From Gonapodya sp. JEL0774 (lineage: Eukaryota), in the NCBI GenBank assembly GCA_027604505.1, contig JADIIX010000011.1, positions 248,001-280,204 on the forward strand: 32,204 nt of DNA. The letters are read 5' to 3'. Shown piece after piece: positions 1 to 25,954 of this stretch. The stretch's first letter is position 1, and every line of letters begins with the position of its first letter. The translations under genes were made by a program, and so were the position numbers. A model generated the notes under the pieces. That model was not told the origin of the DNA. It ran no database searches and was given only the letters and a program-made list of their open reading frames with translations.

Positions 1-1202
1 AAAGGTGGCGCGATTCTCTTATATGTGGAGTGGAAGTTTCTTCTTCGGATCTACCACGATTGCGAGAACCGGGATCTTTTCTCAACGACTCAACTCTTCA
101 TCGTTACTTGGTCGCTCGAAATTTCTCCGCTGACAACGCACTAAAAATGCTTCAAGGAAGTCTGGAATGGAGAAGGACATCGGGATTGATACCAGAGACA
201 CCTATTGACTTTTTGTGAGCATGCTCAGTCTTGAGGAACTTCACTAAAGCGGTAGGAACTTCAAGCACCCCCCTGTCCAGATGTGAAGTCTGCGAGAAAG
301 TGCCAGCATCCCACTCCATTTTGCCCATCGGTGAGAATGCAAATTGGATGCCAACTAGGTGTCAATGTGCTTCACTCCATTGTCTGATATGCTTTTACAA
401 GGATGGGACAGGGAACGGAGACCTGTTGTCTACGGGTGTCCGGCACGGGGGTGAGTAACTTTCTGCACCGAATTCGAGAGCATTCATGTAATCTTTTACT
501 AGGGTAGATACAACTGTCCCTCATATACTACAACACTTAACGCACTGTCTGGAGAAATGCTTTCTCCATCCTCGATCGAGTGGCCAGGTGAGATCAAGTT
601 TTGCTCAGGAGACGTGTTCTTCTACTATTTAAGTAGTCCTCTCTCTGTAGTGGGTTTGGATCGTTGACTTTAATGGGTTTGGGATTGCTCAGGCGTAGGT
701 TCCGCTTCACCGCACTTGAAGCAGTCTTCCATCAATTCTATTGAGATTTGTTCCCAGGATGCAAACGCGCTTGGCAATAACATTTGCCACTACGTTCTCG
801 AACCATATGCCCGAGCGACTTGGTCGAATCGTTCTCCTCAATCCACCCGCCATCTTTTCGCTTTTGAGGGCTGCAGGCAGTCAACTCATCGACAAACGAA
901 CTATGGACAAAATGGTCATCGTGAATGGAAGTCCTGATGATGTCGTTCACCGATTAAATACAGATAAAACGCTGGAGCTCTGTCCTTTAACGGAAGTGGA
1001 GGCTAACATAGCGATGGGCCACGAAATGCGTTTGATGAACGAATGGATCGGGAGAGTTCTCAAAACGAGTACCACAGCTGAACATTTGCCAGAACTGTAC
1101 GATTCACAAGAGTTGCGTGATTTGCAACTCGTTAAAAGCGCACCGTGGAACCCGTCTTCTTGGAGAGACGTCTCAATTTTGCCGCCTTGGAAGGATTCAT
1201 AG
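1..1202 (+). CDS. Sec14/CRAL-TRIO lipid-binding protein (5' end probably outside window)
   Basis: Phase-consistent exons (..214, 281-330, 402-450, 503-587, 651-~694, ~759-1202). They give DSTLHRYLVARNFSADNALKMLQGSLEWR (CRAL-N), GWDRERRPVVY, WVWIVDFNGFG and NHMPERLGRIVLLNPPAIF, which are the standard CRAL-TRIO motifs. Stop TAG at 1200-1202. Confidence 0.9.
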
Positions 1203-1298
1203 TACTTAAGTAGAAAGCTTATACTTGATAGACGAAACATTTCATTGTGCTATGAACAGATATTTTCCTGCAACCAATCTGTTCGTTCTTTCCACACA

Positions 1299-2547
1299 TC
1301 ACTCCGCTTTCACTCCATTCACGGTAGTTTTAGGGGATATTTCGAATAAGGCCTCGAAGACACAAGTCAGTACTTTTTTTTCACAAGCACATCCATTCGA
1401 GACATTATTCAGACTCACATCCTTCATTGCCTTCGTGGTCTTTTCGATGAGTGCGTCCATGTCCTTCACCTCCAGGCCCTTTGTTTCGATTGGTTTTAAA
1501 ACCCTTACTCTGATTGTTCCTGGTGACAATACATTCGCCTTTGGACTGTAAATATTGCTGTAGTTCTGCACAACGATAGGGACGATCGGGTAGCCTCCAC
1601 CAATGGCAACGCGGAACGCACCCTTCTTCAAAGGGAGGAGGGATGGGGTCAGAGAATTCGACCTTGTTCCTTCTGGATAAATAAAGAGCTGAATGCTGGG
1701 TCATCAAGCATTGTACTGCCGACAGTGAACACTGATGCGTCACCCACTGAGAGTTTCTTCTGCGCCATTGACTTCGCCAATTTCTGTGGCCGCACCAAAT
1801 TGCAGTTAGTCAAAGAAGTCGCGAAATACAGCAATAATTGAACGTGACACCAACCGTCATAGTTGCCATGGCGTTATCGTGATTGCCGCGATCAATCAAA
1901 AAGGTTTCCGCTTTTTGTAAAGCGGTGCTCAATCTTCAACGAATGTAGACCACGGGCGGATAAACCTACTGAAAATAAGGTAGAGGTTCAAAAGTGGGAT
2001 ATAAAGAAGGTCCCTCTTCGCCAGGCCGACGCAGTTTCTCGGGGAGAGCACAGCTTGGATGTGCATGTCAATGGTTCCCTGTGAAAGTGGAGTAGACAAG
2101 TGTAGATTAGAAGTTCGAAAAAACAAGTCTCATCACACTTCCTTACCTGGTGGTTTGAACAGAACACTGCCGGGGAAGGGGTTCCCAAGTTCTCCTTGCC
2201 TTCAATCTCGATTTTCCAACCCATGAGCCAGACAATAATCGATGAGATGAACCGTCCCGCGTAGTACTGAGTATCACGACCACGCCCAAAAATGTAAAAT
2301 ATAGCACTAACTTTAAGGTGGATGGTACAGTTCCCAGAACTTAACGAACATTCTCGAAACAAAACGAAGCGACGGATGCCATACTAACCAGGGATTGTAA
2401 GTGCCAGAAAAAGAAACGTGAGCCCAGCTAGCAGCATGTTCTTTATTTTGAACACAAGAGAGGACACGAGTCGCTGTGAAGCATTTGACATCCGCCTAGG
2501 TAAGGATGACACGGCATCAATGTAACGACAGCAATGCTGACCTCCAT
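1299..2547 (-). CDS. SLC1: 1-acyl-sn-glycerol-3-phosphate acyltransferase (PlsC family)
   Basis: The spliced product has NHQ|GTID (HxxxxD catalytic motif), FLIDRG, FIYPEGTRS and LLPLKKGAF..PIVPIV. Likely start is ATG GAG|gtcagc at 2547, which is tentative. The last intron is in-frame with a TACTGAC branch point. Confidence 0.9.
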
Positions 2548-2750
2548 GGTAATCAAGAAGTAGCTTTCGAGGCTGGTTGATCGACAAGTTTCTTACGAGG
2601 GAGATGTGGGTTTTCACATCTGTCATCGGGCTGTGGCCTAGCGGGCCTTGAACTGTTTGCGTTGTTACTGATTGATTCTCACTCAAATACTGACAAAAGA
2701 AAGAAATCGGAATGAACCTTAACAATTCTAGTGGGGGCACGGTGCACATC

Positions 2751-5700
2751 TTACACGGAGAACCCGGTCGGAAACAAAATCCCATCTTTTCTGACAATAA
2801 TCACTTCCATTGTGTCGTCCACCAACGGTTCTTTCCTCCCGGCTCTTATCACTGCAGCTTGAGCAGGTAGCCTCGTCACCAAATGTGTGTCTGAGCGGAC
2901 GTCGCAAAGATCTGACTCGTAAACTCCAAAGAAAACTCTGATCCCACGATGTTCTGAAAACCCTTCCCCGTAGATGTTAAGGATATGTCCGTTCAGAACA
3001 AGTTTGTGGAATATAAAGGGACGTGGAGCGAACGGGGAGCAAATGGACGAACGGTGGTTAGTCGGAGGGATGAAGAAGGAAAACGTCGATTCGGCTGATG
3101 AAACGATCAAGATCATCAGGCCGACAAGAAAAAACATGATTTTCAATTCTGTTAGTCCGCAAGCAATCGGTAATGGGGAACTCACAAACTCCCGCAACGA
3201 ACCACGCCGCTTCCTCCCCAACTTTTAAGAATTTTGGGTTATCTTTCTGAACCCTTCCTTTTACCATTCGCACTCCAATTTCAGTGTTGGTGAGGAACCA
3301 GCCTGGTTTTTCCTCCCACTCAAGTGCTACCTTCTGTAGCTCTGCAAGAGTCGCCTCCTCAGAACTTCCGTGATCCGTCTTCAAAATCTTGTTCGCACCA
3401 TCCAGTTTGATGGATTTGGAATAGTCACTCAAGTGAGACGAGGCGCTCCCATTTTTTGCAGCTTTGCGGGTCCGCTTTCGCGGTTGTGGCTGGGCTTCTG
3501 CTTCTTCATCAAAACTCTCACTCCCATCGTCAACCACACCTTCATCATCACCATCCACTCTCTCAATGGTTACCATCTGTCTTCCGATCACTTTCCTTGT
3601 CAACAATCGCACACTCGTTATACCCGTTTCCACGTGACGCAGCACCACACTTGCGCCGTACTGCACACACTCCTCCTCCCGCCCTTCCGGCGCTTCCACC
3701 CCCAATTCCCCGAGCAACAGGTCCACCACTCCTGGTGTAACTTCTTTGGATGCCCTTGCCACCGGTGGTGCGCCAGGAAGCCACGACACAGGAATGACTT
3801 GCCACTTGTCCCACCTCTCTGACCTGGCGAGGAACGACTCGAAAGATTTGCCCAGGCAAAGGTAGCGAGTGGAGGAGGACTGTGATCTAGTACGATTGAA
3901 AAGGCAGAGATAAGTGTTGGGTGTCACGGACACTGACCATGATCGATGAGGGACGGGTCAGGGGTAAATGGGGGAAAATGTTCAGAATGAGACATCAGAT
4001 AACAGACCACCAATTACGAAACTAACTCTTGATGTCATTTGGGGTGTTTTTGGACGCTTTTGAGATCTGGGTTGGTTGGGGGCGTTGCTCACATGGTGGT
4101 GTGTTGAACTCCTGACCACTCGGAGTGCACTCACCAACCTCAAAGAGGTCGAATCTAAGATCCCAATCAGTTGACCAGTTTCTGTCTTAACCTTGGCACA
4201 GTTTTAGTCAGTTTCACTAACATTCATCTGAGCCTCATTTTTACCTTCGTTCACAAACTCACTTTGACCCTCACCAGTGCCTCTCCATCCCCTCTGGCCA
4301 CACCCCACCACAAACCCTTCATCAAACCTATCCCTTCAATTTTTTTCCCGTCTTCGCAAGCCTCCACCAGCTGCCACTTGTCGCACATCGAGGCGTTACT
4401 TGTGTCACTGATACCGTCTTGTTGGGTACTGACGCCGGCTTCTCGAGAAGGGGTGATTGGGCATACAAAAGCAAGAGCGGCGCGCGTGGATGTCACTTCT
4501 AGCGTAGCTGTGCAAATGATCTGCGGAATGTCGCTGATGGAAGTGTGTGGTGAGTTCCGCGCAAGCGTCCATGCAGAGCCGGTCAGGCGGATTTTAGGTG
4601 CCGGTACGAGAAATCTAGAGAAGATTTGCATCAATGATTTGCAAATTATAGAGAGTCAAACTCTGGTGCGCGGAAGACCCCACCGCTTCTCAGACCCATA
4701 GCTCTTGGGCAAAACTAGCGGGACGGCGATGTGGATTGCTGACGCTCTAGTTGGATCAGCTATATAGGTTGCAACTGATACTCTGTTGACGTATAGAAGA
4801 TGCCAATGAATCATAAATGGTAGTGGGCATGCCAAACCCTTCATAACAAAACACTCACCCCACTTCTCCGGCCGCACTCCCATCGACTTGCGATGGGCTC
4901 ACCGCCCCCGCGCCGAGTCCACTGTTGGATTCACGTTCACTATTCGCCAAACTTGGACGATGTACCGGCATCGCCGTATACCTTCCATACCTCTCGGCGG
5001 GGCGCCGAGCGGGAACACTTGGGGCATAGGTTGTTGCTGGTGAAGAAATGGGCCACGCATGACCCTGACCACTCGCTACGGAGGAAGCAAGCACAGGAAT
5101 GCGGGGAATGGAAATAGGAGATGAGGGCTGGCCGTGGTGGTTTGCGGGTGTGGCAGGTGACTGAATCGCCCCTCGAGGCGGCGTGTGCACGGTATGGAGA
5201 GCTAGTGTTGCGGTGGCAGCGGAAGCGTAACACTCAGGTAGTGGCACCGAATCAGTTGTGGTAGAGAAGTTGAGGCTTGTCGTTGATGTGCGAAAAGGAG
5301 AAGGAGACGGAGTTGAACGGGAAGGAACCCCGATCTCAGTCAAACTCGGAGCTTGTGGGGGGGAAGGTGGAGATGAAAGAAGAAACTAGAGGATGGGAAA
5401 GGATGAATGATGATTATCAATGCCGTTAGCAGGAACCCGGGTGGTAACGCTTGTCACCACTTCGGTTCCATGACAGCTGTGCAAAACCCCTGTATCCGAA
5501 CCGCCGCAAAACACGGCACCACGAACCTCCGCCAGCATATCTAGTCCATTATCTCCTTGCCACTCTTGGCTGGCAGGTACCGCTGGTGAAGAAGCACCGT
5601 ACCGATAATCGCTGTATTGGGTTTGCGAGTGGTATTCAAGCCCATGAGTGTTGATGCTGCCGTAACCGGCAGACGATCCACCAGTAGTGGACGAGGAGCC

Positions 5701-6429
5701 CTCGGGAAGTGGGAGAGGGAGAGATATTGTGCCAACTGCAATGGAGAATTGTTGAACAGCAACCACACGCGAATCAGTTCAGACAAAAATCCCACGCCGA
5801 CCTTCAACAAACGCTTATTCACAACCTCCAAAAAATGAAAAAGAACTGTATGTCGTTTACTTTGTCCCAAAGAGGGTTGTGAATGCTGTTGTGCATCGTG
5901 TGAATTGACGACACCAATGCGATCGATCCTCCAGGCCGAATCCGATCCAGCCCTAAAGATCACTCTCCAGCAAGGGAAGCTTTCATCGTTGACCAATTTG
6001 TCCAAATCGACTCCAAGGGGGGATGGGGCGGTACACTGTTCCCCGACCATTGTGAGAATCACTATTCCGGCACTCACTCATCTCACCAGGAGCAAAGTCT
6101 CTCATTTGGCCCTCAGGCCTTTGCACCACTGAGACTTCAGAGACAGGGACGAGTTGCCCGTCCGATACTCTTTGATAGAGTACACTTTTGCCATCGCGAG
6201 TTGTTCCCAGAAAGAAACTTTGAGCGAGAGGAGAGGATGATGACTGAGCATCGGAATGATGCGCAGATGTTGATACGCGAGAGAAAAGGGGGGTTCGAGA
6301 GACTGGCTGAGAGTGGGAAGGGGAGAAAGCGGAGGATGACGTAGGCGGTTCCGCCGTTGGGGAAGAAGGAAATAGAGAGCCTCCATGGGCCAAAAACCAC
6401 GACGGAGACGCTGTAGACAAATAATTCAT
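2751..6429 (-). CDS. CSL-family (LAG-1/Su(H)/RBPJ, fungal Cbf11/Cbf12-type) transcription factor with long low-complexity N-terminus
   Basis: LAG1 DNA-binding domain: VLPKSYGSEKR|FLVPAPKIRL and ISKASK. Beta-trefoil: LCLFNRTRSQSSSTRYL, VQYGASVVL..TG..RLLTRKV, LAELQKVA and EEAAWFVAG. C-terminal IPT/TIG: LNIYGEGF..VFFG..IVRKDGILFPTG, then TAA. The N-terminal Ser/Pro-rich exons (4855-6429) and the start codon are less certain. Confidence 0.9.
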
Positions 6430-6735
6430 GACAGACAACGAGAAATATGGTCATTTTGCGTTGAAAAGACTTCGGATCAGAAGGACAACGACAAAGGGGA
6501 CGAAAGAGGGATGGAGTCTCGGTGCCCACCACACGACCCGGCTTCTCTGAAGCTCAGACTCACTTTGCCAGCCACGTTCAACACTCTCTATATCCTTTCT
6601 CACGCTGAGAGGTGTATTGGTTTGCATTATGGAATGGATGAATGGAAATAAGTACAAAATACTAGGCATGGTAGCCTAAACCACGGCGCTCTGAGGAGGT
6701 GTCGACAGCTGGGGAGCTCGCCAAATGAGAAGTAG

Positions 6736-6788
6736 GATACAACCGCGCGTTTCGGCGCACGGATGATACATTCCCGCGTTTCGGCGCA
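6736..6788. promoter_or_regulatory. Imperfect 24-bp direct repeat with CGCG/E2F-like cores upstream of the CSL gene
   Basis: gatacaaccgcgcgtttcggcgca (6736-6759) and gatacattcccgcgtttcggcgca (6765-6788) are 21/24 identical. The repeat is seen directly; a regulatory role is inferred. Confidence 0.35.
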
Positions 6789-7058
6789 GTCGGGTGTGTG
6801 TTCGTGGTACCTTCACGATCCAGGAGGAGTGGTTACCCTTGGATGAGCATATTCCAACAGATCATTCAAACCCTCGTGTATTCGGGAGGTATTATTCTAT
6901 CGCATGGAAACAAAGAAAATTGCATCGACGCAGATGGAAAACAAACTGCAAGTCCCGTCTTCCTTCGTCGTACCATGCTTGCGCAATGCGCATCCAGCAT
7001 TGCCACCATCGCGTCCTCATCCCGACAACACCCCTGCCTCGATTTCACACCCTCTGCT

Positions 7059-8250
7059 CTACTTCCCTGTCTTCTGCCCCTTTCCACCCTTTCCCCCCTT
7101 GGGACCCATTCCCCCCTTCCCACTCTCCACCCCACCGCTCGCCAATCTCTTCCCCACCGCCTTGCGCACATTGAATATGCCATCTGGATTCGCACCCGAA
7201 CCCGAACCCGAACCCGAACCACCGGATCCTGATCCAGATGCGGTCCCGGTCCCGAGTTTGGAAAGCACCTTGAGTGCCCGGAAGCGTTCGTCAGAGACAG
7301 AGGTAGGCAGGTCGTGGAGTTTTCGGACGCCGCGGGATTTGAGGAGGGGTTCCGAAGGGTCTAAGTGTGGGGGGGTGGAGTGTGGTGTGGTCGTGGTGTA
7401 ATGGGTTGGGGGATGGGGAAGGTGAGAATTCACAGAGTGAGATTGCGTACACCTTGCACAAAGTGGCCTTATCATGATGACCCGGTCGTGATGTAAAGGT
7501 GCGCATAGCCGGCGTGGTCTCATGTCCCAATTCCCCTCATACGCACCTTGTCGAATTTCCCCATGGACGCTGTAGATTTCCCCGTGGATGCCAGGGCAAG
7601 ATCGAGTTGTGCCTTCCGTTCGAGCTTGGCCTTTGTGCCCACCGCCTTTTCTGCAAGTGGTGTGCCGATACCGACGGAGCGGTTGCGCAAAATACCCAGG
7701 GCCGCCTCCTCATTCCCACGTTTCCGCTTGTGGCTCTTCTCAACGCGCTCCTGCTTCGTATCGCGTTCGGTTTGGAGCATGTCCTCCATAGGGTCGGCGT
7801 TGGCGGGAACTTCCTTGAGCCAGTTGCGGTCGAGCTGATGTGTGCGGGATTTGTACCCGTACGCGGGTCGGTATTCCCCGGATATGGAATCAAACGTCTT
7901 GGCGGTTTTCTTCTTTTTGGTGATTCCCTTGGTTTGAGCAAACTTTTCCCAGCGGGTCATGGGTTTGGGTTTGGGGATGGGCTCTTCGCGAGGTAAGGTG
8001 GAGGTTGGGGCGGGTAAGGTGACGAAGGTGTGGTTTTAAACGGTTGATATAGGGAGGGCAAAGACGTGGTTTACGATGAATTGCGCGCAGTCGCGGGTGT
8101 TGGATTGGAGGAGGGAGTTGGCAGGGGACCGCGATTTTGACGATGAGGAGGACAGTTGGGGTAAAGTGTCGAGAGGGTTCGGGTTGTCGGAGAGGAGGTC
8201 TCCCAGGTCGAGAGATATAGGGATTGGGCGGATGACCTGGAGTGATTCAC
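7059..8250 (-). pseudogene. RRS1: Ribosome biogenesis regulator RRS1 homolog with internal stop (pseudogene or assembly error)
   Basis: Reads VIRPIPISLDLGDLL..NPLD..TRDCAQFIVNHVFALPISTV*NHTFVTLPAPTSTLPREEPIPKPKPMTRWEKFAQTKGI..YGYK..STASMGKFDK, with a last exon containing ERFRALKVLSKL..FNVRKAV. In-frame TAA at 8036-8038. The 5' exon was not located. Confidence 0.75.
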
Positions 8251-9183
8251 TGATGCGAGTTCACAGATTCGATGGTGGAGTGGGATAACAGAAGGGCAGA
8301 AGGAAGCGGACCGAGGAAGCGGGGCGGACAAGCAATAGAAAGGATCAAATAGAGATAGCAGCACCGGAGCAGCGCGGGGTGAGTGCATGAGTGGGGGCAG
8401 CAGCAAAGAAGGTCCAAGTTGAGCGACACGTTCCCCCCCCGCATCGCCCACCCCGTATCATCACTGCGACTTGATCAAAAGACACGTCATTGCGACTTCA
8501 ATATTGCGGATGGCCATCTTCAAAAAATTCATGTTTCCTTGGAGCATAGTGGTTCAGGGAAACGTCATATGACCCTCATTCCAACATTCTGTGACCGTAT
8601 ATTTTTGTATCACATCTCCGCCTGTGTCCCCTGTGGATTCACTCGGTGCTGAAAAGTCTCGCCACGGGATTGATGCATCGCTGCTGAATCAGTCACCGTC
8701 ATCAAGGTACAAATCTCCTAGAGTCTGCGACAAATCTCCCACAGGAACTCGTCACCGCGTCGAATCAGTGCAAAACGCTCATCATCCACCATCCCCCGTT
8801 GATGGCAGGATTCGCTGCAAATCGATCGATTCCTCCCCACTACCGTTTCATTCATACGGCATATCGCTTGCCCACGGCAAATCTCTCGTTTCGCGGCGTT
8901 TTCTCTTGGAGGAGGCCGAATCGCGCTACCAGTCAACACTTGGTTCATTGGTTGGTGAGTTATTTAACCTTTGCTCGTTGATTTTTTCTTGACATCTTAC
9001 CAAGCTTCATGTTGCGACCTTTCCTACTCTACATCTCCCTTTGGCCCCGGCATCTGCATCGCTCAACTCCCTCTCACCCAATCAACCCTCCCCATACACT
9101 TGCTAGCGTTTTACCTCCCATCATCCCATTGCCCCATCCCACCTTCTACCGAGAACCCTCAACCTTGGCCACCCACCAACCCC

Positions 9184-9193
9184 NNNNNNNNNN
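9184..9193. other. Assembly gap (10 N) in a C-run
   Basis: N run flanked by poly-C. Confidence 0.95.
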
Positions 9194-9215
9194 CCCCCGC
9201 CCTACTCAGACAAAT

Positions 9216-10700
9216 ATGTCTCGCAGAAGGAGAGTGGCCAGGCAGAACAGCACTGCCAAGGAGAGAAAGACAATGAACATCCAATCTATTGGGCGAACTG
9301 CTGAGCAAGCTGCCCAATACATTGGATCTTCATCCTCTAAGAGCTAGTAGCCTGCCCTAACAAAGGGAGGAGGGGTGCTGTGGCTGGCTTGTGGGATTTA
9401 TGTGCAGATTACCAAGGAAGCACTCTTGGAAGCAGAAAACAAGTTTGAGGCTGGGAGAACTGTGAGTGATGTTTGCATTGCATTCTGTCCACCAGATGAT
9501 GGTCACCAACTCCATGTCCCATACGTCTGGTAAAGGTGGAGTTGCCACCACAGCCACCATTAACAAGCAGAGCCAGGGAATCTCCCGCAGTGATGGGTCA
9601 GAGGAGGAATGGAAAGGGCCTCCATCACCTACACTGGATCAACTGAAAGAGGAGCAGGGGTACGCAATGTTTGGTGATCATGCGCCAGTGGTGAACCAGA
9701 TGCTCACAGACAGCCACAGCCAGGTGCTTGGCATGCAAGTTGCCGGTGCCATACTGTGGAGCAGCATGACCTTTTCTACAGAGGGCTCAAGGGGCATCGC
9801 AATTTTCAAGATGGGAACAACTATTCCCACAGGGTAGGTAAATGGTTTATGTACTGTCCAGTTCCCGAACCAGTGGCCTATCAATCACAGTGCAAAGCAG
9901 AGCTCAATTACACTTCCACCAGCTCAGAGACCAAGGAGAGGGTTCAGACTATATTCACTGTTGCTGATGCACTAGCTCTGCAAGTCCAGCACACAGGGTT
10001 GGGTATTGACTGCCCCTCTATGGTCAGATTGCTATTGGAAAGGTGTGGAACAAGTAAAGTGGACAAAAAGTACCAGAATTGCAGGCAGGCTCCAGTCCAT
10101 CATCTGGCATCACCAGCTTTGCCAACTTGCAACTTTTATTTTGGAGGAATCACTTGCTCTTGTCTGGGCCTCCACACAATATACATGATAAAACGTACTC
10201 CCATTCCTTTATCTACACATTCAATGAGCGTTATGCAGTCTCCTGTCAGATCTGCAAAGGGAATGGAGTTGTGCTGGCAGTCTTAATGCTGGGCCCATCT
10301 GGCAACCCCATGGTGCTGTTCTTCAGGGCGGCAGCAGGGGACCTCATCATGATAATGGCCAGGATCATGTGCCACAAAGTCATTTGAACTTGCCCCTTCT
10401 GTGGACCCTGAAGGATCAGTCAGGTAGTAGTATTTAACCCTGGGTGAGTACATGTACTCCCTGAAGTTCTAGGGACAGTCAGTGGAGGAGAAGGAGACCA
10501 GTGTGGAAAAGTACCAACTCCACTTGAAAAAGCGCAGAGGACTTTCAAAGGTGCAAAAGAATAAGGAGATGGATGCCCTGAGAAAGGTGAAGCAGGGAGA
10601 AAACTCCCAGGATCTGGAAGAGGAAGAGGAAGGGCAATGACAGGAAGAAGCAGGAAAGGAGGAGACAGGACCACATGACTGGGTGTTAGAGGTTGGTTTG
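9216..10700 (+). pseudogene. Decayed TET/JBP-family 2OG-Fe(II) dioxygenase
   Basis: CTC CAC AC- AAT ATA CAT GAT (10170-10189) reads L-H-T-[D>N]-I-H-D with a 1-nt deletion (HxDxxD/N; compare TET HKDIHN). GDLIMIMARIMCHKVI*TCPFCGP*RISQVVVF (10337-10435) supplies the distal His and RxSxV (compare TET GSxLIECARRELH...RISLVFY). One intron at ~9462-9495. The 3' end is approximate. Confidence 0.75.
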
Positions 10701-11243
10701 CTAGCGTCAGACAGTTGATGGGTGTGGAAGGCCACATTGGTGGAAGAGGAGTGGCGATGGGGAAGTAAGATGTTGGAGCAGAGCCCCTGTGGTTGGAGGG
10801 CACTGGCTGTAGCAGGCACTCTGCTTTGAGTATGAAACAGCGCACGGGAACTGCGAGTCGGCCATGAGGGGTTATTTGAATCATGGGAAACAAAATTATT
10901 TGAATGTGAAAAGCTAGATATGTGTGACCCGTCTAAGGGTCACTACCAGAGTCGATCATAAAGCAGAATACTGTGACAGAAATGTAATGAACGAGAGCAA
11001 AAGCCAATACAGACAAGCCTCTGTCTCACCTGTGACAGAGTGGACTCTATCAATATCCCATTTTTTACACCCCCCATGCAACTGACCACCCCCACCCTGC
11101 AAACAGGTACCCCCATCATCAAATCTGGAGCAGTGTTAATGTATTTTATGATGACAACCATAATAAATCTGTGAAACTGCTGAGGCTAGATTGTGCCAGT
11201 GTTCACATCACAAGTTGAGATGATTCTGATGGAGATGAATTAT

Positions 11244-13722
11244 TCAAACGCAAGGTTTATACAAATGAAGCATAGGCGATCTTCCACCTCTACGTGTCAT
11301 ACGTGCAGGGCTGGGCTCTGTGGGCACTTGGGGGGCCTGTTGCCGACACTTTGGAGACGATTCTTGTGGGACAGATAAGTGGTTGGGATATGAATACAAT
11401 GAACACAACCTAAAAGTACTCACCATCTTCATTTGGTGCTTGACGTCCATGCTGTAGTGTCCTTGGTTCAGGCTTTGGAGCTGAAAGGGCAGCATTCAAT
11501 CTAATTAGTTGAAGGGGTACATGAACACTACAACAGATCAACTTACGTTCAGGTTCCTTTTCCTCTTCTTTCCCTTCTTCCCCTCCATCCCCATCTTCGT
11601 CATCTTTGTCATCACTCTCATCTTCTGAAGATGTGATGTCTGGGTGCTTACTGAGAGAACTGTCAGAATCTGTCAGTGTAGCACAGTTAGTAAGCACTTA
11701 CAATAAACATGGATTGTGAGAGGGCACTTACCACTGTCCTGAGTACCAGCAACCTTGGCCTGGAGGTTGAGGTACTTAGTGACATCTGAGGAAACACATG
11801 TCAGTCCCTTCAGATATTCATTGCTTTAGTATGTCAATGAGAACTCACCTAATGGAGCGCCACGGCTTTTTCTTTCGGACTGAACCTACCATGGTGACTA
11901 CAAACATTGAAACAGCAGTGATGTTATGCATATGAATGTGTTGTAATAACAGACTCACGTGCTTTAGGGACTTTGATGGACACATTGTTGTCAGCTTCAA
12001 CAACATGCACCTCAGACTTGCTCTTTGCAGTGTGTTAAGGTGTCGTTGCCATGCAGAATGTTGACTTGACATAGCTGAGAAAATCGCGTTTGCGAATCAG
12101 TCTAAACAGAAGAACATTGTAAGAATGTCACAGGTAACAACAGTAAAGTTGGCCTCACTTGTCAAAAACCTCTCCCATGTCTTCAGTGGACTTGGTCTCC
12201 AGGTCCATTAAGTGGCTGTCAAGTGAGGAGTTAAGAAGATCATCAAGTACCCACAATGTGCACTTCCTGCCAAGAAGCTTCATCATGCCACGACCAAGTT
12301 CCCAGTGCTCATACTTGGAACTGCAATGTTGCTGTCGGAGTTGCTGATGAGGGTGAGAACCTTCATCCAGAATGCTGTTGGGAGAGGTGGAACGGTGAAG
12401 AACAAGACCTTCTTCAGGGCTTTCTTGGACTCTTGAGGGGCAGTATAAGTCTATATGACAAGAACAAGAGAAAGCATCAAAATGTAATGAGTGAAGAGAT
12501 ACATTTGAAATTGTAACTCACCAACATGTGGACCCAAGACATTGGCCAATGCGCACGAGCAGCGCCACTTGGAACTTCACCAGTTTAGAGACAAGGGAGA
12601 TTTCAAGGAAAAAAGCAGGTGAGCAACAGTGTTGGTGGTAGTGTAGGGCGAAGCTTCTTCCCGCAATCCTTGGTTGATTTGCAAGAATGCTGTTCATACG
12701 CAAAGTGGAGGAGCGAATGCACGTGAACCCCAGCAGAAGTGAGGTGCTTCAGAACCGCCTCGTACTGCAGAAGATCCAATTGCTGGAGCACAAAACTTGT
12801 GAGTGAAACGTCCACAAACAAAATTGCAATAAACCTACCTTAATGAGTATTCCTTTCAGCAAGAGCAACTTGATGCGTGTAATGTCATGTGGCTGTCAAA
12901 GTTGTGTGTGAAGTGGAGGGTGACAGAGCAGTGAACCTGTTGTTGATTGTTCTTTCTAGGAGCGATGTCTATTAGATATTGAAAGAACATGAAGTACAAG
13001 AAACAACTCACTGTTGACGTACTCTTCGGCAAGTCCTGTTTCTGGTGACAATGAATGCTGGTTACTCAAAACAAACTGCCACCAAATCGGTGGACAGCAA
13101 GATTCACTTCACCTTTTTCCTCGCCTTTGCTCCCAAGCCCAAGATGGTCTTTGCATCCCTGAATTACCTGGGCACATGTTGCAGTGCCAGGAAATGTATC
13201 TTAAAGAGCCACATGACATAACAAAGCTCTGATGTGCCAACAAACGTCTTCTGGAGTATCTTTCTGCAAGCGAGAAGCATGGTAGGATAGCAAAGCGAAA
13301 GTGAAACTTGAGCTCACCTTCAACACAATTGCACTGACCTCAAGCAAACCGTCCAACAACCCCGGAAGAGTTTGGTACTCAACTCCGTCAGCCTGCAGAT
13401 GGAAAATGGCAATCAGTCAGTAGTTTCCATTGACAATGCCAGAAAAGCATCTGCCAAGTGGGAAGAGGATGAAAATGGACATAGCAACAAAGCCTTGACC
13501 AATGAGGATACCCCTGCCAGATGCAGTGTTACACAAGCTTCCTCCATGCAACACCAACATGGTGAACACATACTTCAGAACAGTGATCCTGGCTTCATAA
13601 CGTTTGCGAACAGGCATGCACGTGTTCATCTTGATCTTCTTGATTGGGATTTGCCTCAATTCTGGCTTGTGCTATCTCCTTAGGAGTTCAGCAATAGAGG
13701 TGGATCCACAGACGTTCGACAT
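11244..13722 (-). pseudogene. Decayed multi-exon gene: ParB/Srx-like N-terminal domain + degenerate beta-class (N6A/N4C) DNA methyltransferase fold + acidic tail
   Basis: ParB-like part: IPIKKIKMN..VRKRYEARITVLK|GILIGQGF..IFIL..SGIV[N<D]GNY[*<R]LIAI (GxxR signature). Phase-0 exon chain 13263-13012, 12955-12839, ~12764-12522, 12450-~12159. It contains LLCHPPL and PTAFWMKVLTLISNSDSNIAVPSMSTGNLVVA(C)MKLLGRKC..LD, which is in register with the PxxLxxxLI..SNPGDxVLDPFMGSGTTxVACxxLGR consensus. Start ATG at 13722 is tentative. Confidence 0.65.
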
Positions 13723-13849
13723 GATGCTGAAGTGAAAGATTGGACAAGAGTTTTTTGGAAATGCTTTTGAGTGGCGATAATAAATGTTGCTGCACTTTTA
13801 CGTTCCAAGATGGCAGTCAGTAAAGCAGATTGTTTTGAAGAGAACTGCA

Positions 13850-16270
13850 GAAGACTCACACCACAGCAAACATTCCCACACCTTTTTTACAGCCGCCAAC
13901 CCACCCTCAAGTCCCCACTCTGCGAGTTGATCACGTGTCTTGTTTTTGAAAGAATTTGAAGGACTGGGGAAGGCAATTGAAGGATATCAAACAACTGTCA
14001 GTAACACAGAATGTTTTGAAGATAATTACAGAAGACTCACCACAGCGCGTACTCCCACACCTCTTTTTACAGCCACCAAGCCCACGTGACATCCCCACTC
14101 TGTGCATTGCTCAGGTGTCGAGATGTGGTATGGGGGTTGCAAGTGTGCTGATATTACAAACTAAAAGAGTTTCAAAAACAACCAAGCACTCACTGTTCTC
14201 TCCATGAGGCTGTAAGGGCCAAACTTGTATGCTAGCAGATCATCTGAGTGCTTGGGTCTCCACCACTTCTTGAGAAGGTCGACATGTTGATTGGTGCTAG
14301 GCAGCAATTTGAGCACCTGGACTGCTTTTTCCAATTCGCCTTTGGACTTGGGGTTTCAGAGTTGAAAGAACTTTGTTGCTTTGAACAAGTTGCCAAGAGA
14401 ATCCTGTATTGCTAGGATCACTTCCAGGAAGGCCAGAGTTTTATCAAGTAGAAACATGAGCACATCACTTGATGGGGTGAGCTCCCCCTCCAGTCAAAGG
14501 GACTTCTCGTCAATCAACAAGTGCAGTATCATTCTGATTGAGTAGCAGATCAACATTCCTGGGCGACAAGAAACAGATGCAATGGTTTTCTCACAATACG
14601 AGCATCTGGAACGCCCCTCTTGCAAATCCCAATGTCACTGGGGACTTGCCCATACTAATGTGTTGTGTCGTGCTGGCAAATATTATGGCACTTCCAGGAT
14701 CACATAGGTCCCTGACGTAGAGGACCAGACACGGTTCAGTTGATGACCTCAGAGGGCACTGCCATTCACTAAAGCAGGGCTCAGTTTAGCAACATGTCGC
14801 TTATGCAGTCAGAAAGCCCATAGTTTGCTCACATTGAGCTAAAATGCTTGTATGATACTTGTACCCTCCAACTTCCGGAGACATGCCAAAATGGTCTATT
14901 GATCCTGTACTTGCCTGGTGGGCCAGCCACTGTATGTACCAATCCACGATCCACACTTTCCCATGCAAATGCCTTTTCAGTGTCTGTGGTGAACACAGCT
15001 TTGATGGAGTAATCAGAGGTGGTGAACAGAACAGCATCAATTGCATCAGACATGACAACATCTTGCATGCTGGTTTCCTTGATCCCCTCCAACACAGCAG
15101 CAACCACCTTGTTGGAGTAAGATCCAGTTGGGGATTGAAATGGGCCCTGATGTAACAGACAGACAATTGACATGAGATAAATACCTTGTTGCATGCCTAT
15201 GGGTTATCAAATCAGCTTGGTGTGGTAGTCCTTGTTCCATGCAAAGGCCCCGTTCACTCCAATGGTGGTGGAGAAGTCACCGCTCCAACCCATTTAGATT
15301 TTCCTCTGGCTTTTGCAGATGCCTGCCCAAATAAGGTTTGCTGCATCCGTGTCCCAAAACAATATGGATCATTACCATTTTTCATACTGGTTATTATTGG
15401 TAAAGAAACCTTGAGTCAACTTTCTCACTTGGCAGTCATTCATCAATCATTCTCACTACTTTACGCAGACGTCATCCTCGCATTTTACTGCTCGCAATTT
15501 CTTTATTGAGCCACACGGCGATGCTTTGAATGGTGGGTGCGAGGTTTTGAGCCAGATGGCTGCCTGCCAACGTTGGAAATTGGATATGGCCCATTGAAAC
15601 ACAAAGTCAATGGATGAAAAACAAGGTGGGCAACACCAAAAGATATCTACATACCTTTTGTGTCCTGGATACTGGGAGGTCCCTAGACATTTTCCTGGCA
15701 GATACAGTGACGCAGACATCTTCAAGGGTGGGGTTAATTGTGTGGTTGAATGGCATGACCTCGTTGTTGTTGCCCAACTTGGTGTGAATAAATGTGGACC
15801 AAATTGCACCTGATGGCAGAATTTGTGAAATGATGTTATCAGTATGTAAATCAGTTGGTTGACCACTGTGAATGAACACCAAGCAGGAATATCTTACCTT
15901 GCGATCTCTTTTGCCCCAGATATCAGCCAAAGGTGGCTGGCATGGGTGTTTTATTCTTTTTCTGTGTGATGACCTTTGATTCGCGAAGCACCTGCCCAAG
16001 ATTGTATCCTATCAGAAATCAATGAATCATGACTCAAATATACAGGGAGTGTCACCATCTTACAGAAACTGTATTGGCGTTTGAGATTTCACCTTCTTAA
16101 CCAGTCCACCCTAAAATAGATGGGGCAAGGAGAAAGGGAAGGTCTGTTACTCTTCCATTATTTGATCATTCTTCAGATCAAAGCTACATATTGCTGACTC
16201 ACGTCGTTGTCCCCTGGTCTTTCCGTCCCTGCTCAGTTGCTCCAACCTGTGGCATGTCACCAAGAGCAGT
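13850..16270 (-). pseudogene. Decayed multi-exon gene of unknown function within the island
   Basis: Repeated gtgagt/gtaaga/gtatgt donors and (c/t)ag acceptors on the minus strand flank interrupted reading frames, e.g. ORFs 15607-15999 and 14829-15194. No family recognised. Confidence 0.4.
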
Positions 16271-17723
16271 CCTTGTCAAGATTTTCTATAATGGGTTCAG
16301 TCGCCATCAAGATCCACCATGGACAGACATTCAATAGTACAAATGGAAGTGGGTTGGGAGGCACATATGCAAGAGAGACAAAGTTATGAATGAGGTTCAG
16401 AAACAGTTGCATATTACAGAATCACAGAGCGGTACACAGGTGTTTGATATGATCAAATCCGTAGGAGCATTACATAGAATAACCATTTGAAGGATTTGGC
16501 GAAGAAAACTCCAGATCTCCAAGAAACGCAAGCGTGCAAATGTCTGTCCAACAGAAAACAAAGGGGTTGTACCTGCCCTTTGCTTCCAACATACTCAGGG
16601 AGGTGCTTGGTTTCTGAGTGTATTGGAAGGTCGCAAGTCAATGTATTTAGCTTTAAATGCGTCTGTTTTGCACACCAAATGGATTCGTAATGTTGTGGTT
16701 CGCGGCGGAACTGTTGGGTATCTGTCCCGAGACTCAATGTGTATATCTGAACTCTAGTACAATGTGTTCACTAAGCAGCTGCAGCTGAGCTGCCGGCACA
16801 ACTAAGATCACTAGGAAAATCTCAAAACTACTCTATATGCATTTATATACTAATAGATATCACATCTATCCAAGGAACGGGTGCCGCGACCAGGGGTGAC
16901 GCGTGGGGGTGAACGGGGACGACTGCTGTCGTGCTTGTGGGGTCACGTGACTCCGGCTAAACTCCCGCCTTTAGTTGTCGTCTCACAACAGTAACGAGTC
17001 GTTTATTTGCCGTTCACGATCGTTTACCCGCCATTCAAAGCAGAAAATATATGAATGTAAACACCAAAACTCACATGTTACAGTTCTTTGAACGTCCCAC
17101 TCCCACTTCCAACACGCCCCACCTTCTCCTCCCTCATCGCAGACAGTCACAGGCAGCCCCCGCCCACCCGCTCCACCCTCTGCATGACCCCAAGCCAGTC
17201 TTTCTCCGGATACTATTAGTAGCACGGACCCCGCAGACGCAACACCGGTGCCCGGGAACGTCCTACTAGCCGGTAGCGCCGCCCCAGACCCCGCAGCCGC
17301 GGCCTCCCTGGCTGTGTCGCCTCCATGACCGCGACACTCACCCGAACCTCTCTCCGCCACGCCTCACGTTTCACCTCGCGCTCTCCAAACCCCTCTGCCC
17401 ACGACGATGGAGTTACATTGGGACTTGTGTGTTGTAGTTTGATACGGCGGCGACATTTCTCTTGTCATGATTTTGATTTTATGATTTCAAAGTTTGTTAG
17501 TTTCACGGGTCCTCGTATCATTTTAAAAAGAGGGAGAGAGAATTACATGATTTGAAAGCTGATGCGAGTATCAAGACGCGAGTATCAAGAGCAGTCACCA
17601 GACTTCTCATCCCTCTGAACACAACAGACTCTCAGTGACAGTAACTCGTCCCTCCCCACGGCCTGTGATCTACTATCCTGAAACTGTATTCTGTTGGTGC
17701 TTCTAGCGAGATTTTGCGGTTAC

Positions 17724-22789: not shown

Positions 22790-25700
22790 ATGCTCAACCG
22801 ATCCACGTCATCATCCAAGCATTTGGTTAGAGCGCCCGTTGTGCTCCTGTTGATTGTTGCGGCTTTCGGGACGTTTTTCCGCGCTACCGCCGTCGCCGTG
22901 CATACGCAAATTGGACGTAAGTACAGAGGAGGCCTCGAGCGATTTATACATGAAGCGCTTTCGCAGTGCCTTTTCACCTTGCAGCCGAAAATGCAAGTAA
23001 AATCAGGGGTCGAGCTCCCATCGTGTCTCCACTCCCGCCCGATGATCCTGGCCCAACCCCTCCGCCTCCCCCCCCCCCTCCTGATCCACCATCATTTGTG
23101 AATCCTCTGATAATTTCTTCGTCGCCAGTAAGCTCGCCGGTCACACTTGCTCTTTCCCCACTAACCTGCGTCTTTGTCCTTCTCACCAGACTAGTACGTC
23201 GTGTTGTTCCCTATCAAGCTGCAACAATGGGGCATGCAGATCGTGTACAGCTCCTGGATACCCCTTTCTATGTGTTTGTGGGTCGATGCATATGAATGTT
23301 CTACTCCTGCTCAAGCGTATTAACTTGGAAGCGGTTTACAACAGCTGGAGTTGGGGGATCAACATCAGGAGATCAATGCTGGAACTCCCCATGCGAGGAT
23401 AATGGGCTACAAAGCGCGATTCAAGATGATGGAACATGCTGTGTGAGTGGCACCAGTGCCTTCATCCTCAACTCCGATTTTAAGTGTTTCACCCAAACCG
23501 GTTGAACTTCAGGATACTAGACCTTTGATACAAAAAAATGCATCGGTAAGATTTTGTTTTGCAGAACGCTATGTGAGCCATGCGGCTCAAATGGAACTTC
23601 CTGCAGAGTGGCTGTTGTGCAGTGGGATCCGTGTGCTCGTCGGGATATTGCTACAAATGCCCTCCAAGTCTAATAACTTATGAGTTTAGTTGCCTATGTG
23701 AGGCATGGCTCTTCAGATTTGCATTTCACGCAGTTACTCAATCTCTTATTGCTCGCTCTCTCGCTCAGTTCCGATTAACGTCATTCCCAGAAAGCGCCAG
23801 CTGAATCAGGAAATCAGATGTTCTCGAACGAGTTGCGCTGTATTGGGTTATCCACCAGCTTTTACTGCATGACGGCACGTGTTGTGTGAGTAAAGAGAAA
23901 AGTTTGCCGCTTTTCCCACACTGAACTGTGTGTGAACGGGGATATGAAGCCACCCGTCACAACATCTGTTATAAGCACCCTCACGACAACGAGTTTCACA
24001 CCCACATCATCCTCGACAACGAGTTTCACACCCACATCATCCTCGACAACGAGTTTCACACCAACATCATCCTCGACAACGAGTGTCACACCCACATCAT
24101 CCTCGACAACGACTGTAAGCACGACCGCCACCTCTTCCTTGACAACAAGCTTCACTCCATCGACATCCGTGACGACATCATTGACCACAAACGTCACCGC
24201 AGCAACATCCGCGACGAGCACCAGCGCTATATTCGTAATAACGACTATCAGCCCAACGGCATCTGCTTCAAGCGTTCTCACGACTACGGTGACAGTGGCT
24301 GTCACCACAACTACGATGGTACTCGGCCCATCTACTTCTTCAGCAGTGATAACTACACCAATCGGTCAGACCTCTCCAGCTTTGCCCCCAGCTTCGTCAA
24401 TAGCTGGGCCGCCGCCGCAGACTACAACTGTCCTCGCAGCACCTCCAAGCACCACACCTGGTCCAGCGGTATCCTCGCAGCCTCAGTTCTTTTCCGCTGG
24501 AGTGTTCCTACCCTTTCCACCCTTGGATCTTTTTCCGACAAGTTCTTCGGACACACCCACTATCACAGTTCCTCCTCAAACGGCATTGCTAATACCTCCA
24601 CCCTCATCGTCACTCTCGTCTAGTTCAGTTGTTATTTTACCATCGCCAACAGTATCTGCGAACGCGGTGGCGCCAGAGTCGCCTCCCAGCAACCCGCCGC
24701 CTCCGACCACTGTTGGCGCAAACGGAAGTGCCGACACACCGAATGCGCCGAACACTCCCGCAATCGTGGGAGCTGTTGTGGGGAGCTTGGTTGGAATTTT
24801 AATAGTTGGAGGGATTGTGAAATATGTGTCTCAGAAGCCGAATCCGAATGCGTGTGTAGTCGCTGCAGCCAAATCGATTTATTGGTATTCTCAGGTGTCT
24901 TCTTTTGTTGTTCAGCGATCCATCCACGCCGCCAGGTCCACCCGACTCAACGCCTACAGGCGCACACGCAACGGAAAATGGCATCGCACGAGCTGTTGTT
25001 AGCGCTCCGATCGCCACAGGTGCCGGTTCGGGTGCTAGCGCTGGTGGGAGCACGAGCGGAGGCGGACTGGCTGGAAACACGGCGTCCCCACAATATTCCG
25101 TACCACACGCTCCCTCTGGCGTTGGTACAAGCATAGCAGGGGCTCCTGGACAGGTTGCAAGTCCGGTCGGTGTGGGTGGAGGTGGAGGGGGAACGGCTGG
25201 AGCGATCAGCGGAGCTCACACAACAGGAACGGTATCGGCGACCGCCACTAGCGGTGCTACAATTCCAGGAACGGGAGTCAGTGGTACAACAACTGGTACC
25301 GTCGGAGGTCTCGGTGTGCACGGAAGTGCAACTTCGGGATTGGCAACCGCCGGTGGGAACCCTGCGACATTTACACCGGGCTGGGGAGCGGCTCAAACAG
25401 CCACTGGGAGCGCCACCACAACTTCGGGTTTGGCAACAGCAGGAGGTGGGAATGCCGCAACAATTACACCGGCCTGGGGGGCAGCTCAAACAGCCACTGG
25501 GAGCGCCACCGCAACTTCGGGGTTGGCAACAGCTGGAGGTGGGAATGCCGCAACAATTACACCAGCCTGGGGGGCGGCCCAAACAGCCACTGGGAGCGCC
25601 ACCACTGCAATTTTGCCTGCGAATGCCGCCACCGGGCTCGCGAGCACAGCTCCCACTGTTGCGCACTATGCCACTGGCGCAGCCTCAACGACGGGCGCAA

Positions 25701-25954
25701 TCGCCTACCTGCCATCTAGCATGGCCGTTACTGCAGGAGCGGCTTCTAAATCTGCGGTGGGAGCTGCCTCTGTTGGGCCAGGTGGAGCATTCAGTGGCAT
25801 GGGCCCTGTTGGATACACAGCCGTAGGTGTTGAGGGGCAAGTTGCGAGGGCAGCATTGATGGGAGCTGGTGTGGCAGCTGCGACGACGAAGACTACTGGT
25901 ACTGGAGCGAAGGGTGATTCTTCAAGAAGGAGAGACTATGGTGGACCCAGATGA
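22790..25954 (+). CDS. Type I cell-surface protein: signal peptide, Pro-rich linker, 2 Cys-rich modules, Ser/Thr mucin stalk, TM helix, Gly/Ala/Thr repeat tail (one apparent frameshift)
   Basis: Signal-like APVVLLLIVAAFGTFFRATAVA. Cys exons 23190-23277, 23345-23442, linker 23513-23545, 23607-23697, 23769-23885. Stalk exon from ~23950. TM helix AIVGAVVGSLVGILIVGGIV. Intron 24852-24915. TGA at 25952-25954. Exon 23769-23885 is 1 nt too long. Confidence 0.75.
23986..24110 (+). repeat. 30-bp coding tandem repeat (TTSFTPTSSS) x~4
   Basis: acaacgagtttcacacccacatcatcctcg repeated nearly perfectly. Confidence 0.9.
25331..25605 (+). repeat. 90-93 bp coding repeat x3 (TSGLATAGG(G)NxATxTPxWGAAQTATGSAT) in predicted cytoplasmic tail
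   Basis: Units start at about 25331, 25421 and 25514. Confidence 0.85.

What the first reader, a model, noticed from the sequence alone, without database searches (positions are those of the whole stretch)
9216..13722. Fossil DNA-modification cassette: TET/JBP dioxygenase convergent with a ParB-methyltransferase fusion
Seen: two convergent, intron-containing relic genes that the ORF track hides because of stops and frameshifts. Reverting CpG-type changes restores HxDxxD...H...RxSxV on the + strand. On the - strand it restores a ParB IVDGNxR signature followed by a beta-class amino-methyltransferase fold. Established: TET/JBP enzymes oxidise 5mC or thymine, fungal TET/JBP genes are carried by KDZ-type transposons, and ParB-N plus DNA methylase fusions are common in phages and prokaryotic mobile elements. 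Inference: this is a eukaryotised mobile cassette pairing a base-oxidising enzyme with a DNA-binding (pseudo)methylase, possibly to mark or protect its own DNA against host methylation.
Basis: partly seen in the sequence, partly recalled or inferred. Interest (0 to 1): 0.92.

Follow-up and report, generated by a model that had tools for sequence, protein, structure and literature searches.

The report
Decayed fungal TET and ParB-methylase island
A 7.5-kb, CpG-depleted stretch of what is likely an early-diverging fungal genome holds two broken genes, one predicted to be a TET/JBP DNA-base oxidase and one a ParB protein fused to a likely inactive DNA-methylase fold, and is likely a dead transposon whose cargo would have countered host methylation; each cargo type is known from other transposons, but I saw the pair together only here.

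Summary
Both relic genes are real and convergent, and they lie in one CpG-poor island (about 9.0-16.6 kb; CpG o/e 0.30 vs 0.87 outside). The + gene matches a Gonapodya protein (152 of 251 residues identical) that keeps HxDxxD...H...RxSxV and further TET/JBP residues; it has no Pfam hit. The - gene has five GT-AG introns. It matches three G. prolifera proteins with a weak ParB-like N-terminus (GNHR) and a beta-class N6/N4-methylase fold (Atlas model, TM 0.62-0.68). Their catalytic DPPY reads DFPS in 3 of 3, so a pseudo-enzyme is likely. The window copy also lacks about 110 residues. A third, unidentified relic gene fills the rest of the island; I found no termini and no proven transposase. Linkage elsewhere is untested, so 'cassette' is an inference. 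TET-carrying fungal transposons, ParB-methylase cargo in a brown-algal Sola1 element, and methylase plus ParB-2OG-oxygenase cargo in red-algal Plavaka are all published. Verdict: a new variant of a known kind, dead at this locus.

The parts
9000..16620 (.). CpG-depleted island, likely one methylated and decayed mobile element; edges approximate (left 8900-9200, right 16300-16900)
   Evidence: CpG o/e 0.30 inside vs 0.87 outside, TpG and CpA both 1.47, log-likelihood 140. Sub-regions 0.15-0.40, flanks 1.15 and 1.04. No TIR or TSD found.
9216..10640 (+). Decayed TET/JBP-like 2OG-Fe(II) dioxygenase gene; start at 9216 inferred, 9840-10589 aligned; 3 stops, 2 frameshifts
   Evidence: tblastn E 1e-74 to P0001; 152 of 251 identical. 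P0001 matches a TET residue pattern met by 21 of 27 phage TET/JBP proteins and 0 of 200,000 shuffles (pattern written after seeing P0001). Atlas feature lead Tet_JBP at 0.90.
9273..9333 (.). Imperfect hairpin with arms of about 22 bp near the left edge of the island; role unknown
   Evidence: Self-blastn E 7e-8; -16.4 kcal/mol, z -3.8, 1 of 200 shuffles as stable (stretch chosen after the blast).
11244..13722 (-). Decayed ParB-like plus beta-class amino-methylase-fold fusion gene with an acidic low-complexity tail; introns 13317-13264, 13011-12956, 12838-12765, 12521-12451, about 12158-12102; about 110 codons deleted near 13230; 6 stops, 3 frameshifts
   Evidence: phmmer hits P0002-P0004, E 2.6e-12 to 2.7e-5; spliced alignment 173 of 436 identical; intron ends; fold of P0002; 3' end from a weak match to P0004.
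13318..13722 (-). ParB/Srx-like N-terminal domain, IVNGNY* at about 13440-13420
   Evidence: P0004 hits GmrSD_N at E 0.0023, below the curated cut-off, and is named ParB/Sulfiredoxin domain by UniRef. hhalign score 21.7-23.8 vs a maximum of 16.8 in 40 shuffles, probability only 13-19%.
12161..12955 (-). Beta-class methylase fold; motif IV region about 12930-12910 (reads LLCHPPL), motif I region about 12330-12290 (reads IAVPSMSTG)
   Evidence: Score 336 vs a maximum of 56 in 20 shuffles for the methylase part; alignment to P0002; P0002 DFPS aligns to phage DPPY.
13816..14177 (.). Two tandem copies of a unit of about 180 bp (78% identical over 125 nt) just upstream of the ParB gene; each holds a GTGAGT donor, so probably a duplicated exon-intron unit of gene 3
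   Evidence: no third copy in the window.
14190..16310 (-). Third relic gene with splice signals, unidentified; a Mutator-like motif pair (TDTEKA...FWH, resemblance recalled) makes it a transposase candidate only
   Evidence: Six-frame reading and splice sites; no Pfam hit below E 0.1; an IS256/MULE profile ranks it 3rd in the window, within noise.

Best explanation
This is a CpG-depleted island holding three broken genes, and it is likely a dead copy of a multi-gene DNA transposon of a Gonapodya-like fungus, whose predicted TET/JBP enzyme would have oxidised host-laid 5-methylcytosine on the element while the ParB-methylase-fold protein likely acted as a non-catalytic DNA-binding partner. Shown: both genes, their decay, the island and dispersed relatives. 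Inferred from relatives: the domain identities, and loss of methylase catalysis (DPPY read as DFPS, SAM-loop D and F replaced). Inferred from published fungal and algal elements: that it is a transposon, that the genes travelled together, the anti-silencing role, and targeting by the ParB domain. The host appears to have methylated this copy, which then decayed by CpG deamination, frameshifts and a deletion.
For: All three genes sit in one island with sharp edges; the only other CpG-poor 300-nt window is a single one at 4001. Three relatives of the - gene are three separate G. prolifera gene models on contigs of different lengths, and two of them share the window's N in the DGNHR motif, which fits a repeat family. 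P0001 keeps the Fe-binding triad and the 2OG-binding R. P0002 265-545 matches N6_N4_Mtase models in 10 of 10 structure rows, TM 0.62-0.68, with Pfam E 0.016 and hhalign E 3e-4, score 32.9 vs a maximum of 22.8 in 40 shuffles. Motif IV is DFPS in 3 of 3 relatives, against DPPY or SPPY as first match in 54 of 56 phage ParB-methylases. Precedent: TET genes in 11 fungal transposon lineages (PMC12730594); ParB-methylase in Ectocarpus Sola1-1 (PMC12477816); methylase plus ParB-2OG-oxygenase in red-algal Plavaka (bioRxiv 10.1101/2025.02.11.637652).
Against: No second locus with both genes was found. The TET relative came only from Gonapodya sp. JEL0774 and the ParB-methylase relatives only from G. prolifera, though the word-based search is insensitive: it missed P0002-P0004. 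No TIR, TSD or transposase hit. CpG loss is uneven: 13 of 87 expected in the TET gene, 47 of 127 in the ParB gene, which separate insertions would also give. P0001 has no Pfam or PDB hit to TET/JBP and its hhalign probability against phage TETs is 2.9%. The Atlas model of P0002 has mean pLDDT 0.48. The relatives are probably decayed gene models themselves. Substrate (5mC, T or 6mA) is untested.
Confidence: 0.5

Rival explanations
1. Chance neighbours. A TET-carrying element and a ParB-methylase-carrying element (with gene 3) inserted next to or into each other in a methylated patch, and the pairing has no function.
For: Relatives came from different species. CpG o/e is 0.15 in the TET gene vs 0.30-0.40 in the rest, and identity to the relative is 61% vs 40%. 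TET genes move passively between fungal transposons (PMC12730594, section 4.1).
Against: The 600-nt spacer is also CpG-poor (0.31) and no internal terminal repeats were found. A methylase and a ParB-oxygenase do travel together in red algae (bioRxiv 10.1101/2025.02.11.637652).
Confidence: 0.27
2. The fusion was an active, atypical amino-methylase that wrote 4mC or 6mA on the element, with the TET enzyme erasing 5mC or processing the new mark.
For: The fold and the motif IV aspartate are kept, as is GTG in motif I. CcTET oxidises 6mA as well as 5mC (PMC12730594, PMC13297926). Eukaryotic permuted methylases with unusual strand-4 motifs exist (PMC4738411, section 8).
Against: The base-stacking aromatic of DPPY is S in 3 of 3 relatives, and in P0002 the DPF of motif I reads IPS and the SAM-ribose acid is replaced. 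The window has no D/N/S-P-P-aromatic in the P0002-guided or the P0004-guided register.
Confidence: 0.13
3. The island is a methylated fragment of an endogenous large DNA virus or phage-like element rather than a transposon.
For: Both gene types are common in viral contigs; TET-ParB pairs are a phage feature (PMC13229309).
Against: Five spliceosomal introns. No relative in viral contigs or annotated phages. No viral family hit in PHROGs for the nine sequences tried.
Confidence: 0.05

Closest known systems
TET+ DNA transposons of Dikarya (Kojima 2025, PMC12730594; KDZ, Plavaka, hAT7, IS3EU, EnSpm, Helitron)
   Same: Divergent TET/JBP gene with HxD...H...R in a repeat-like, methylated context; proposed anti-silencing role.
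   Different: Reported from rusts, mushrooms and Pezizomycetes only; the text has 0 occurrences of 'chytrid', 'Gonapodya' or 'ParB'. No transposase or termini are proven here.
Sola1-1_Ec32 accessory gene of Ectocarpus (PMC12477816)
   Same: ParB-like domain fused to an N4C/N6A methylase domain as transposon cargo, proposed to bind and modify its own element.
   Different: Brown alga, 1104 aa, opposite strand to the transposase; no TET partner in the passages or supplement rows seen. Here the catalytic motif is DFPS and a TET gene faces it. Sequence kinship not tested.
Plavaka accessory genes PAG2 and PAG3 of red algae (bioRxiv 10.1101/2025.02.11.637652)
   Same: The same three domain types on one element: PF01555 methylase, ParB, and a 2OG oxygenase; repeats beside the ParB gene.
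   Different: There ParB is fused to the oxygenase and the methylase to SET; the oxygenase's best HHpred hit was 2OPW, not named as TET/JBP. Here ParB is fused to the methylase and the TET stands alone.
ParB-dependent phage thymine dioxygenases (O'Toole et al. 2026, PMC13229309)
   Same: A TET/JBP gene beside a ParB-fold gene, with no C5-methylase seen next to it.
   Different: Those ParBs are stand-alone NBD plus dimerisation-domain proteins in phages; activation is untested here and P0001 is far from the phage proteins.
Chlorophyte-type Dam family 2 with ParB-type HTH in chlorophytes and chytrids; phage ParB-terminase-locus methylases (Iyer et al. 2016, PMC4738411)
   Same: A ParB-related domain fused to an amino-methylase in chytrid fungi; phage ParB_N-N6_N4_Mtase fusions have the same domain order.
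   Different: The chytrid family belongs to Group 2 (M.EcoKI/M.TaqI-like) and carries the ParB HTH; this one is permuted (beta) with the ParB N-terminal motif and a degenerate active site.

Membership tests
TET/JBP dioxygenase (PF12851) | HxD...H Fe-binding triad and 2OG-binding RxS with family spacing | tested here: met
   P0001 H138, D140, D143, H206, R219-x-S-x-V-x-F; H-to-R spacing 13, the commonest among phage TETs. Broken by a frameshift and D-to-N in the window.
TET/JBP dioxygenase (PF12851) | Family-specific residues beyond the generic 2OG-Fe motif (PxxxxxQ, TxNxN, second D) | tested here: met
   Pattern met by 21 of 27 phage representatives and by P0001, 0 of 200,000 shuffles (built post hoc); the P...P...Q helix found independently by hhalign, score 22.5 vs a maximum of 18.2 in 30 shuffles.
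TET/JBP dioxygenase (PF12851) | Profile hit above the Pfam cut-off | tested here: not met
   No Pfam family at E 10 for P0001; Atlas lead only (0.90, 19% of cluster). Divergent fungal TETs also needed structure-level evidence (PMC12730594, section 3.2.3).
TET/JBP dioxygenase (PF12851) | Double-stranded beta-helix fold | tested here: inconclusive
   Single-sequence model pLDDT 38; no Atlas model.
TET/JBP dioxygenase (PF12851) | Oxidation of 5mC or T in DNA | not testable with these tools
   Needs an assay.
Beta-class amino-methylase (PF01555) | Permuted fold, motif IV before motif I | tested here: met
   10 of 10 Atlas structure rows are N6_N4_Mtase, TM 0.62-0.68 over 207-236 residues; Pfam E 0.016 and CcrM E 0.0077, both below cut-off; hhalign.
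Beta-class amino-methylase (PF01555) | Catalytic (D/N/S)PP(Y/F/W) | tested here: not met
   DFPS in 3 of 3 relatives; LLCHPPL in the window.
Beta-class amino-methylase (PF01555) | SAM-binding DPFxGxG | tested here: inconclusive
   IPSVGTG in P0002 and VPSMSTG in the window: the last glycine kept in both, D and F lost.
ParB/Srx N-terminal domain (PF02195 clan) | Hydrophobic strand plus (D)GxxR motif in a ParB-like profile | tested here: inconclusive
   GNHR in 3 of 3 relatives; GmrSD_N E 0.0023 below cut-off; hhalign probability 13-19%, above 40 of 40 shuffles; window DNA itself within noise.
DNA transposon (KDZ, Plavaka, Mutator or other) | Recognisable transposase | tested here: inconclusive
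   Gene 3 has no Pfam hit; IS256/MULE profile 24.8 bits, 3rd in the window; no homolog search was left for it.
DNA transposon (KDZ, Plavaka, Mutator or other) | Terminal repeats and target-site duplication | tested here: inconclusive
   Best edge-to-edge inverted score 28 vs null mean 34; no TSD with a TIR inside among 22 candidate pairs. Decay and an N gap at 9184-9193 could hide them.
DNA transposon (KDZ, Plavaka, Mutator or other) | Dispersed copies and host silencing signature | tested here: met
   Three separate G. prolifera relatives; CpG o/e 0.30. Copy number in the window's own genome could not be tested.
ParB-dependent T-dioxygenase system | Cognate ParB needed for oxidation of dsDNA | not testable with these tools
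   Defined by assay in PMC13229309.

The most novel reading that the evidence does not exclude
A eukaryotic, transposon-borne counterpart of the phage ParB-activated dioxygenases: the ParB-pseudomethylase fusion binds the element and switches on its cognate TET/JBP enzyme, which writes 5hmU or oxidised 5mC on the element's own DNA as a two-gene anti-silencing module in an early-diverging fungus.
Probability: 0.15. Interest if true: 0.8.

Novelty: new variant of a known kind. Interest (0 to 1): 0.5.

Why it matters
If the linkage holds, it extends TET-carrying mobile elements from Dikarya to zoosporic fungi. It would also show the ParB + amino-methylase + 2OG-oxygenase cargo known from red algae in a different fusion arrangement with a likely dead methylase. 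That gives a test of whether ParB domains target or activate transposon TET enzymes, a role so far demonstrated in phages (PMC13229309) and only proposed for algal transposons. The locus itself is dead, and the sharp CpG-poor island points to CpG methylation of repeats in this lineage.

Tried and rejected
Pfam on read-through frames and pieces of the window gave no relevant family; PHROGs likewise. The word-based search with the ParB exon found nothing, and with P0001 only itself. PDB sequence searches gave only weak nucleoside diphosphate kinase matches for P0001 (E 0.06 or worse, rejected) and nothing for alignment A1. tblastn in phages gave no match. Metagenome and viral scans found no relative. 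AlphaFold models were unusable (pLDDT 38 and 26), so no fold search was run. Own profiles of phage ParB-methylases, chromosomal ParB, phage TET and IS256 did not pick out the window DNA, even with CpG-aware scoring. Tet_JBP was found in 0 of 401 and 0 of 401 bacterial genomes searched. No sequencing run was listed (not evidence). No Rfam match in 8500-17500. My by-eye readings of gene 3 as KDZ, hAT or Fanzor were not supported; Mutator is the best lead but stays within noise. A ParB-type HTH that I first read near 13050 was dropped after the alignment to P0002. An alternative motif IV register (FVDVSL, from P0004) is less likely because P0004 lacks the KVLHPDG segment that the window matches. 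No complex prediction was sent: the two intact relatives come from different species and model poorly.
Full report
Context. The window is eukaryotic, with intron-split host genes (CRAL/TRIO, acyltransferase, RRS1). No whole genome is held. All four database relatives of the two relic genes are Gonapodya proteins, so a monoblepharid fungus is inferred; I did not confirm this with a host gene. The finding lies in a CpG-depleted island. The best segment is 8924-16614, with CpG o/e 0.30 against 0.87 outside and TpG and CpA both 1.47, while TpA is not raised. This fits deamination of methylated CpG, not RIP. By part, o/e is 0.15 (TET gene), 0.31 (spacer), 0.37 (ParB gene), 0.40 (repeats) and 0.30 (gene 3), against 1.15 and 1.04 in the flanks.

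Plus-strand gene. A read-through of 10058-10450 found one relative among 282 candidates, P0001 (KAJ3335122.1, E 5e-39). It aligns over 9840-10589 at 152 of 251 residues, score 719, against a maximum of 62 in 20 dinucleotide shuffles. P0001 is open and reads HVDVHD...CHKV...RRISAVVF. The window has a 1-nt frameshift and D-to-N in that motif, two TGA where P0001 has R, and one TAG. P0001 has no Pfam hit, no TET hit in PDB sequences and an unusable model. The Atlas gives Tet_JBP as a lead (0.90; 10 of 10 family-bearing hits agree; recognition 2062, below its 2300 bar). I fetched phage TET/JBP proteins by motif, kept 27 representatives of 152 usable among 239 motif-bearing ORFs, and confirmed 4 of 4 tested as PF12851. 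Their HMM does not score P0001. hhalign finds only the P...P...Q helix (score 22.5, above 30 of 30 shuffles, probability 2.9%). A pattern of the shared residues is met by 21 of 27 representatives and P0001, and by 0 of 200,000 shuffles; I wrote it after seeing P0001, so it overstates significance. TET/JBP is likely, not proven. No intron is needed in the aligned part.

Minus-strand gene. phmmer over 1.84 billion representatives returned three proteins (E 2.6e-12, 2.2e-9, 2.7e-5), all G. prolifera gene models. P0002 aligns colinearly over 13704-11966 at 173 of 436 residues, score 554 (shuffles at most 67, opposite strand 69). Five introns are placed consistently, four of them checked as GT-AG at both ends. 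There are six stops, three frameshifts and a loss of about 110 residues after the ParB domain. The N-terminus has GNHR in 3 of 3 relatives. P0004 hits GmrSD_N at E 0.0023, and hhalign against ParB sets scores 21.7-23.8 against a shuffle maximum of 16.8, at 13-19% probability. ParB-like is plausible but weak. The methylase fold is better supported: 10 of 10 Atlas structure rows for P0002 265-545 are N6_N4_Mtase at TM 0.62-0.68, on a model of mean pLDDT 0.48, with sub-cut-off hits to PF01555 (E 0.016) and CcrM (E 0.0077). ANLIVLDFPS aligns to the phage AnlvvTDPPY (relaxed alignment). DFPS stands in 3 of 3 relatives, against DPPY or SPPY as first match in 54 of 56 phage fusions (56 full-length of 120 ORFs). 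Motif I reads IPSVGTG. By established methylase chemistry (my knowledge), loss of the stacking aromatic and of the SAM-loop D and F points to a pseudo-enzyme. The window reads LLCHPPL there.

Rest of the island. A third spliced relic runs from about 16310 to 14190 or beyond on the minus strand. It has no Pfam hit, and a profile of 20 IS256/MULE proteins ranks it third in the window, within noise. Two units of about 180 bp precede the ParB gene, and a hairpin lies at 9273-9333. I found no terminal inverted repeat or target-site duplication.

Linkage. No eukaryotic contigs were reachable, and scans of metagenome and viral contigs found no relative. The TET relative came from one species and the ParB-methylase relatives from another. 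That is weak evidence, because the word search missed P0002-P0004 and P0001 was searched only that way.

Mechanism. Most likely (0.5) this is a dead multi-gene transposon. Its TET/JBP enzyme would oxidise host 5mC on the element, and the ParB-methylase-fold protein would serve as a non-catalytic DNA-binding partner. Genes, decay and island are shown; domain identities are inferred from relatives; mobility, co-travel, substrate and targeting are inferred from precedent. Rivals: chance neighbours (0.27), an active atypical 4mC/6mA writer (0.13), a viral relic (0.05).

What is known, and what I saw of it. Kojima 2025 (PMC12730594; parts 1-4 of 7, term search, supplement part 1 of 20): TET genes in 11 transposon lineages of Dikarya; no mention of chytrids or ParB. 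[quoted passage not shown] Bostrychia preprint (10.1101/2025.02.11.637652; passages only, supplements not seen): PAG2 methylase-SET and PAG3 ParB-2OG-oxygenase on Plavaka. O'Toole 2026 (PMC13229309; parts 1-4 of 7): ParB activates phage T-dioxygenases, with no stable complex detected; I reached it through earlier scan notes. Iyer 2016 (PMC4738411; passages and section 8): a ParB-HTH Dam family in chlorophytes and chytrids, of another methylase group. Passages only: PMC8885841, PMC13297926, PMC10538959. Iyer 2014 was not held and Iyer 2011 was not seen; both, and the Bostrychia supplements, may already list such fungal elements. Searches for the combination returned 0 papers or only papers cited above plus one off-topic review.

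Verdict. The reading of the sequence was good and holds. The parts are known kinds of transposon cargo; their arrangement and host lineage appear new, on one dead locus with linkage unproven. New variant of a known kind, interest 0.5.

Noticed in passing
window 14190-16310 (-): Third intron-containing relic gene in the same island, unidentified; Mutator-like TDTEKA...FWH stretch at about 14990-14870; a transposase candidate.
   Followed up: partly
window 13816-14177: Two tandem units of about 180 bp, each with a splice donor, directly upstream of the ParB-methylase start.
   Followed up: partly
window 9273-9333: Imperfect hairpin with arms of about 22 bp inside the presumed TET 5' end, near the island's left edge.
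   Followed up: partly
window 16776-16794: Short GC-rich palindromes (CAGCTG repeats) just right of the island; could be a terminal hairpin, not tested.
   Followed up: no
window 720-8035: Host genes left of the island: CRAL/TRIO domain (E 6e-9), acyltransferase (E 4e-8), RRS1 (E 4e-34), and a weak beta-trefoil hit at 3058-3957 suggesting a CSL transcription factor (E 0.057).
   Followed up: no
window 23890-25954, 28953-29855, 31420-32200: Thr/Ser-, Gly/Ala- and Pro-rich repeat ORFs with 30-, 93-, 81- and 60-bp tandem units, probably cell-surface proteins.
   Followed up: no
P0002 265-545: The top Atlas feature hits (0.94-0.95) are unnamed clusters of 81-109 members, 330-368 aa, taxa not recorded; they may be a wider family of these degenerate beta-class methylases.
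   Followed up: no
P0001 residues 128-137 vs window 10160: The window has six fewer residues just before the HxD motif than P0001, in a GL...GL context.
   Followed up: no
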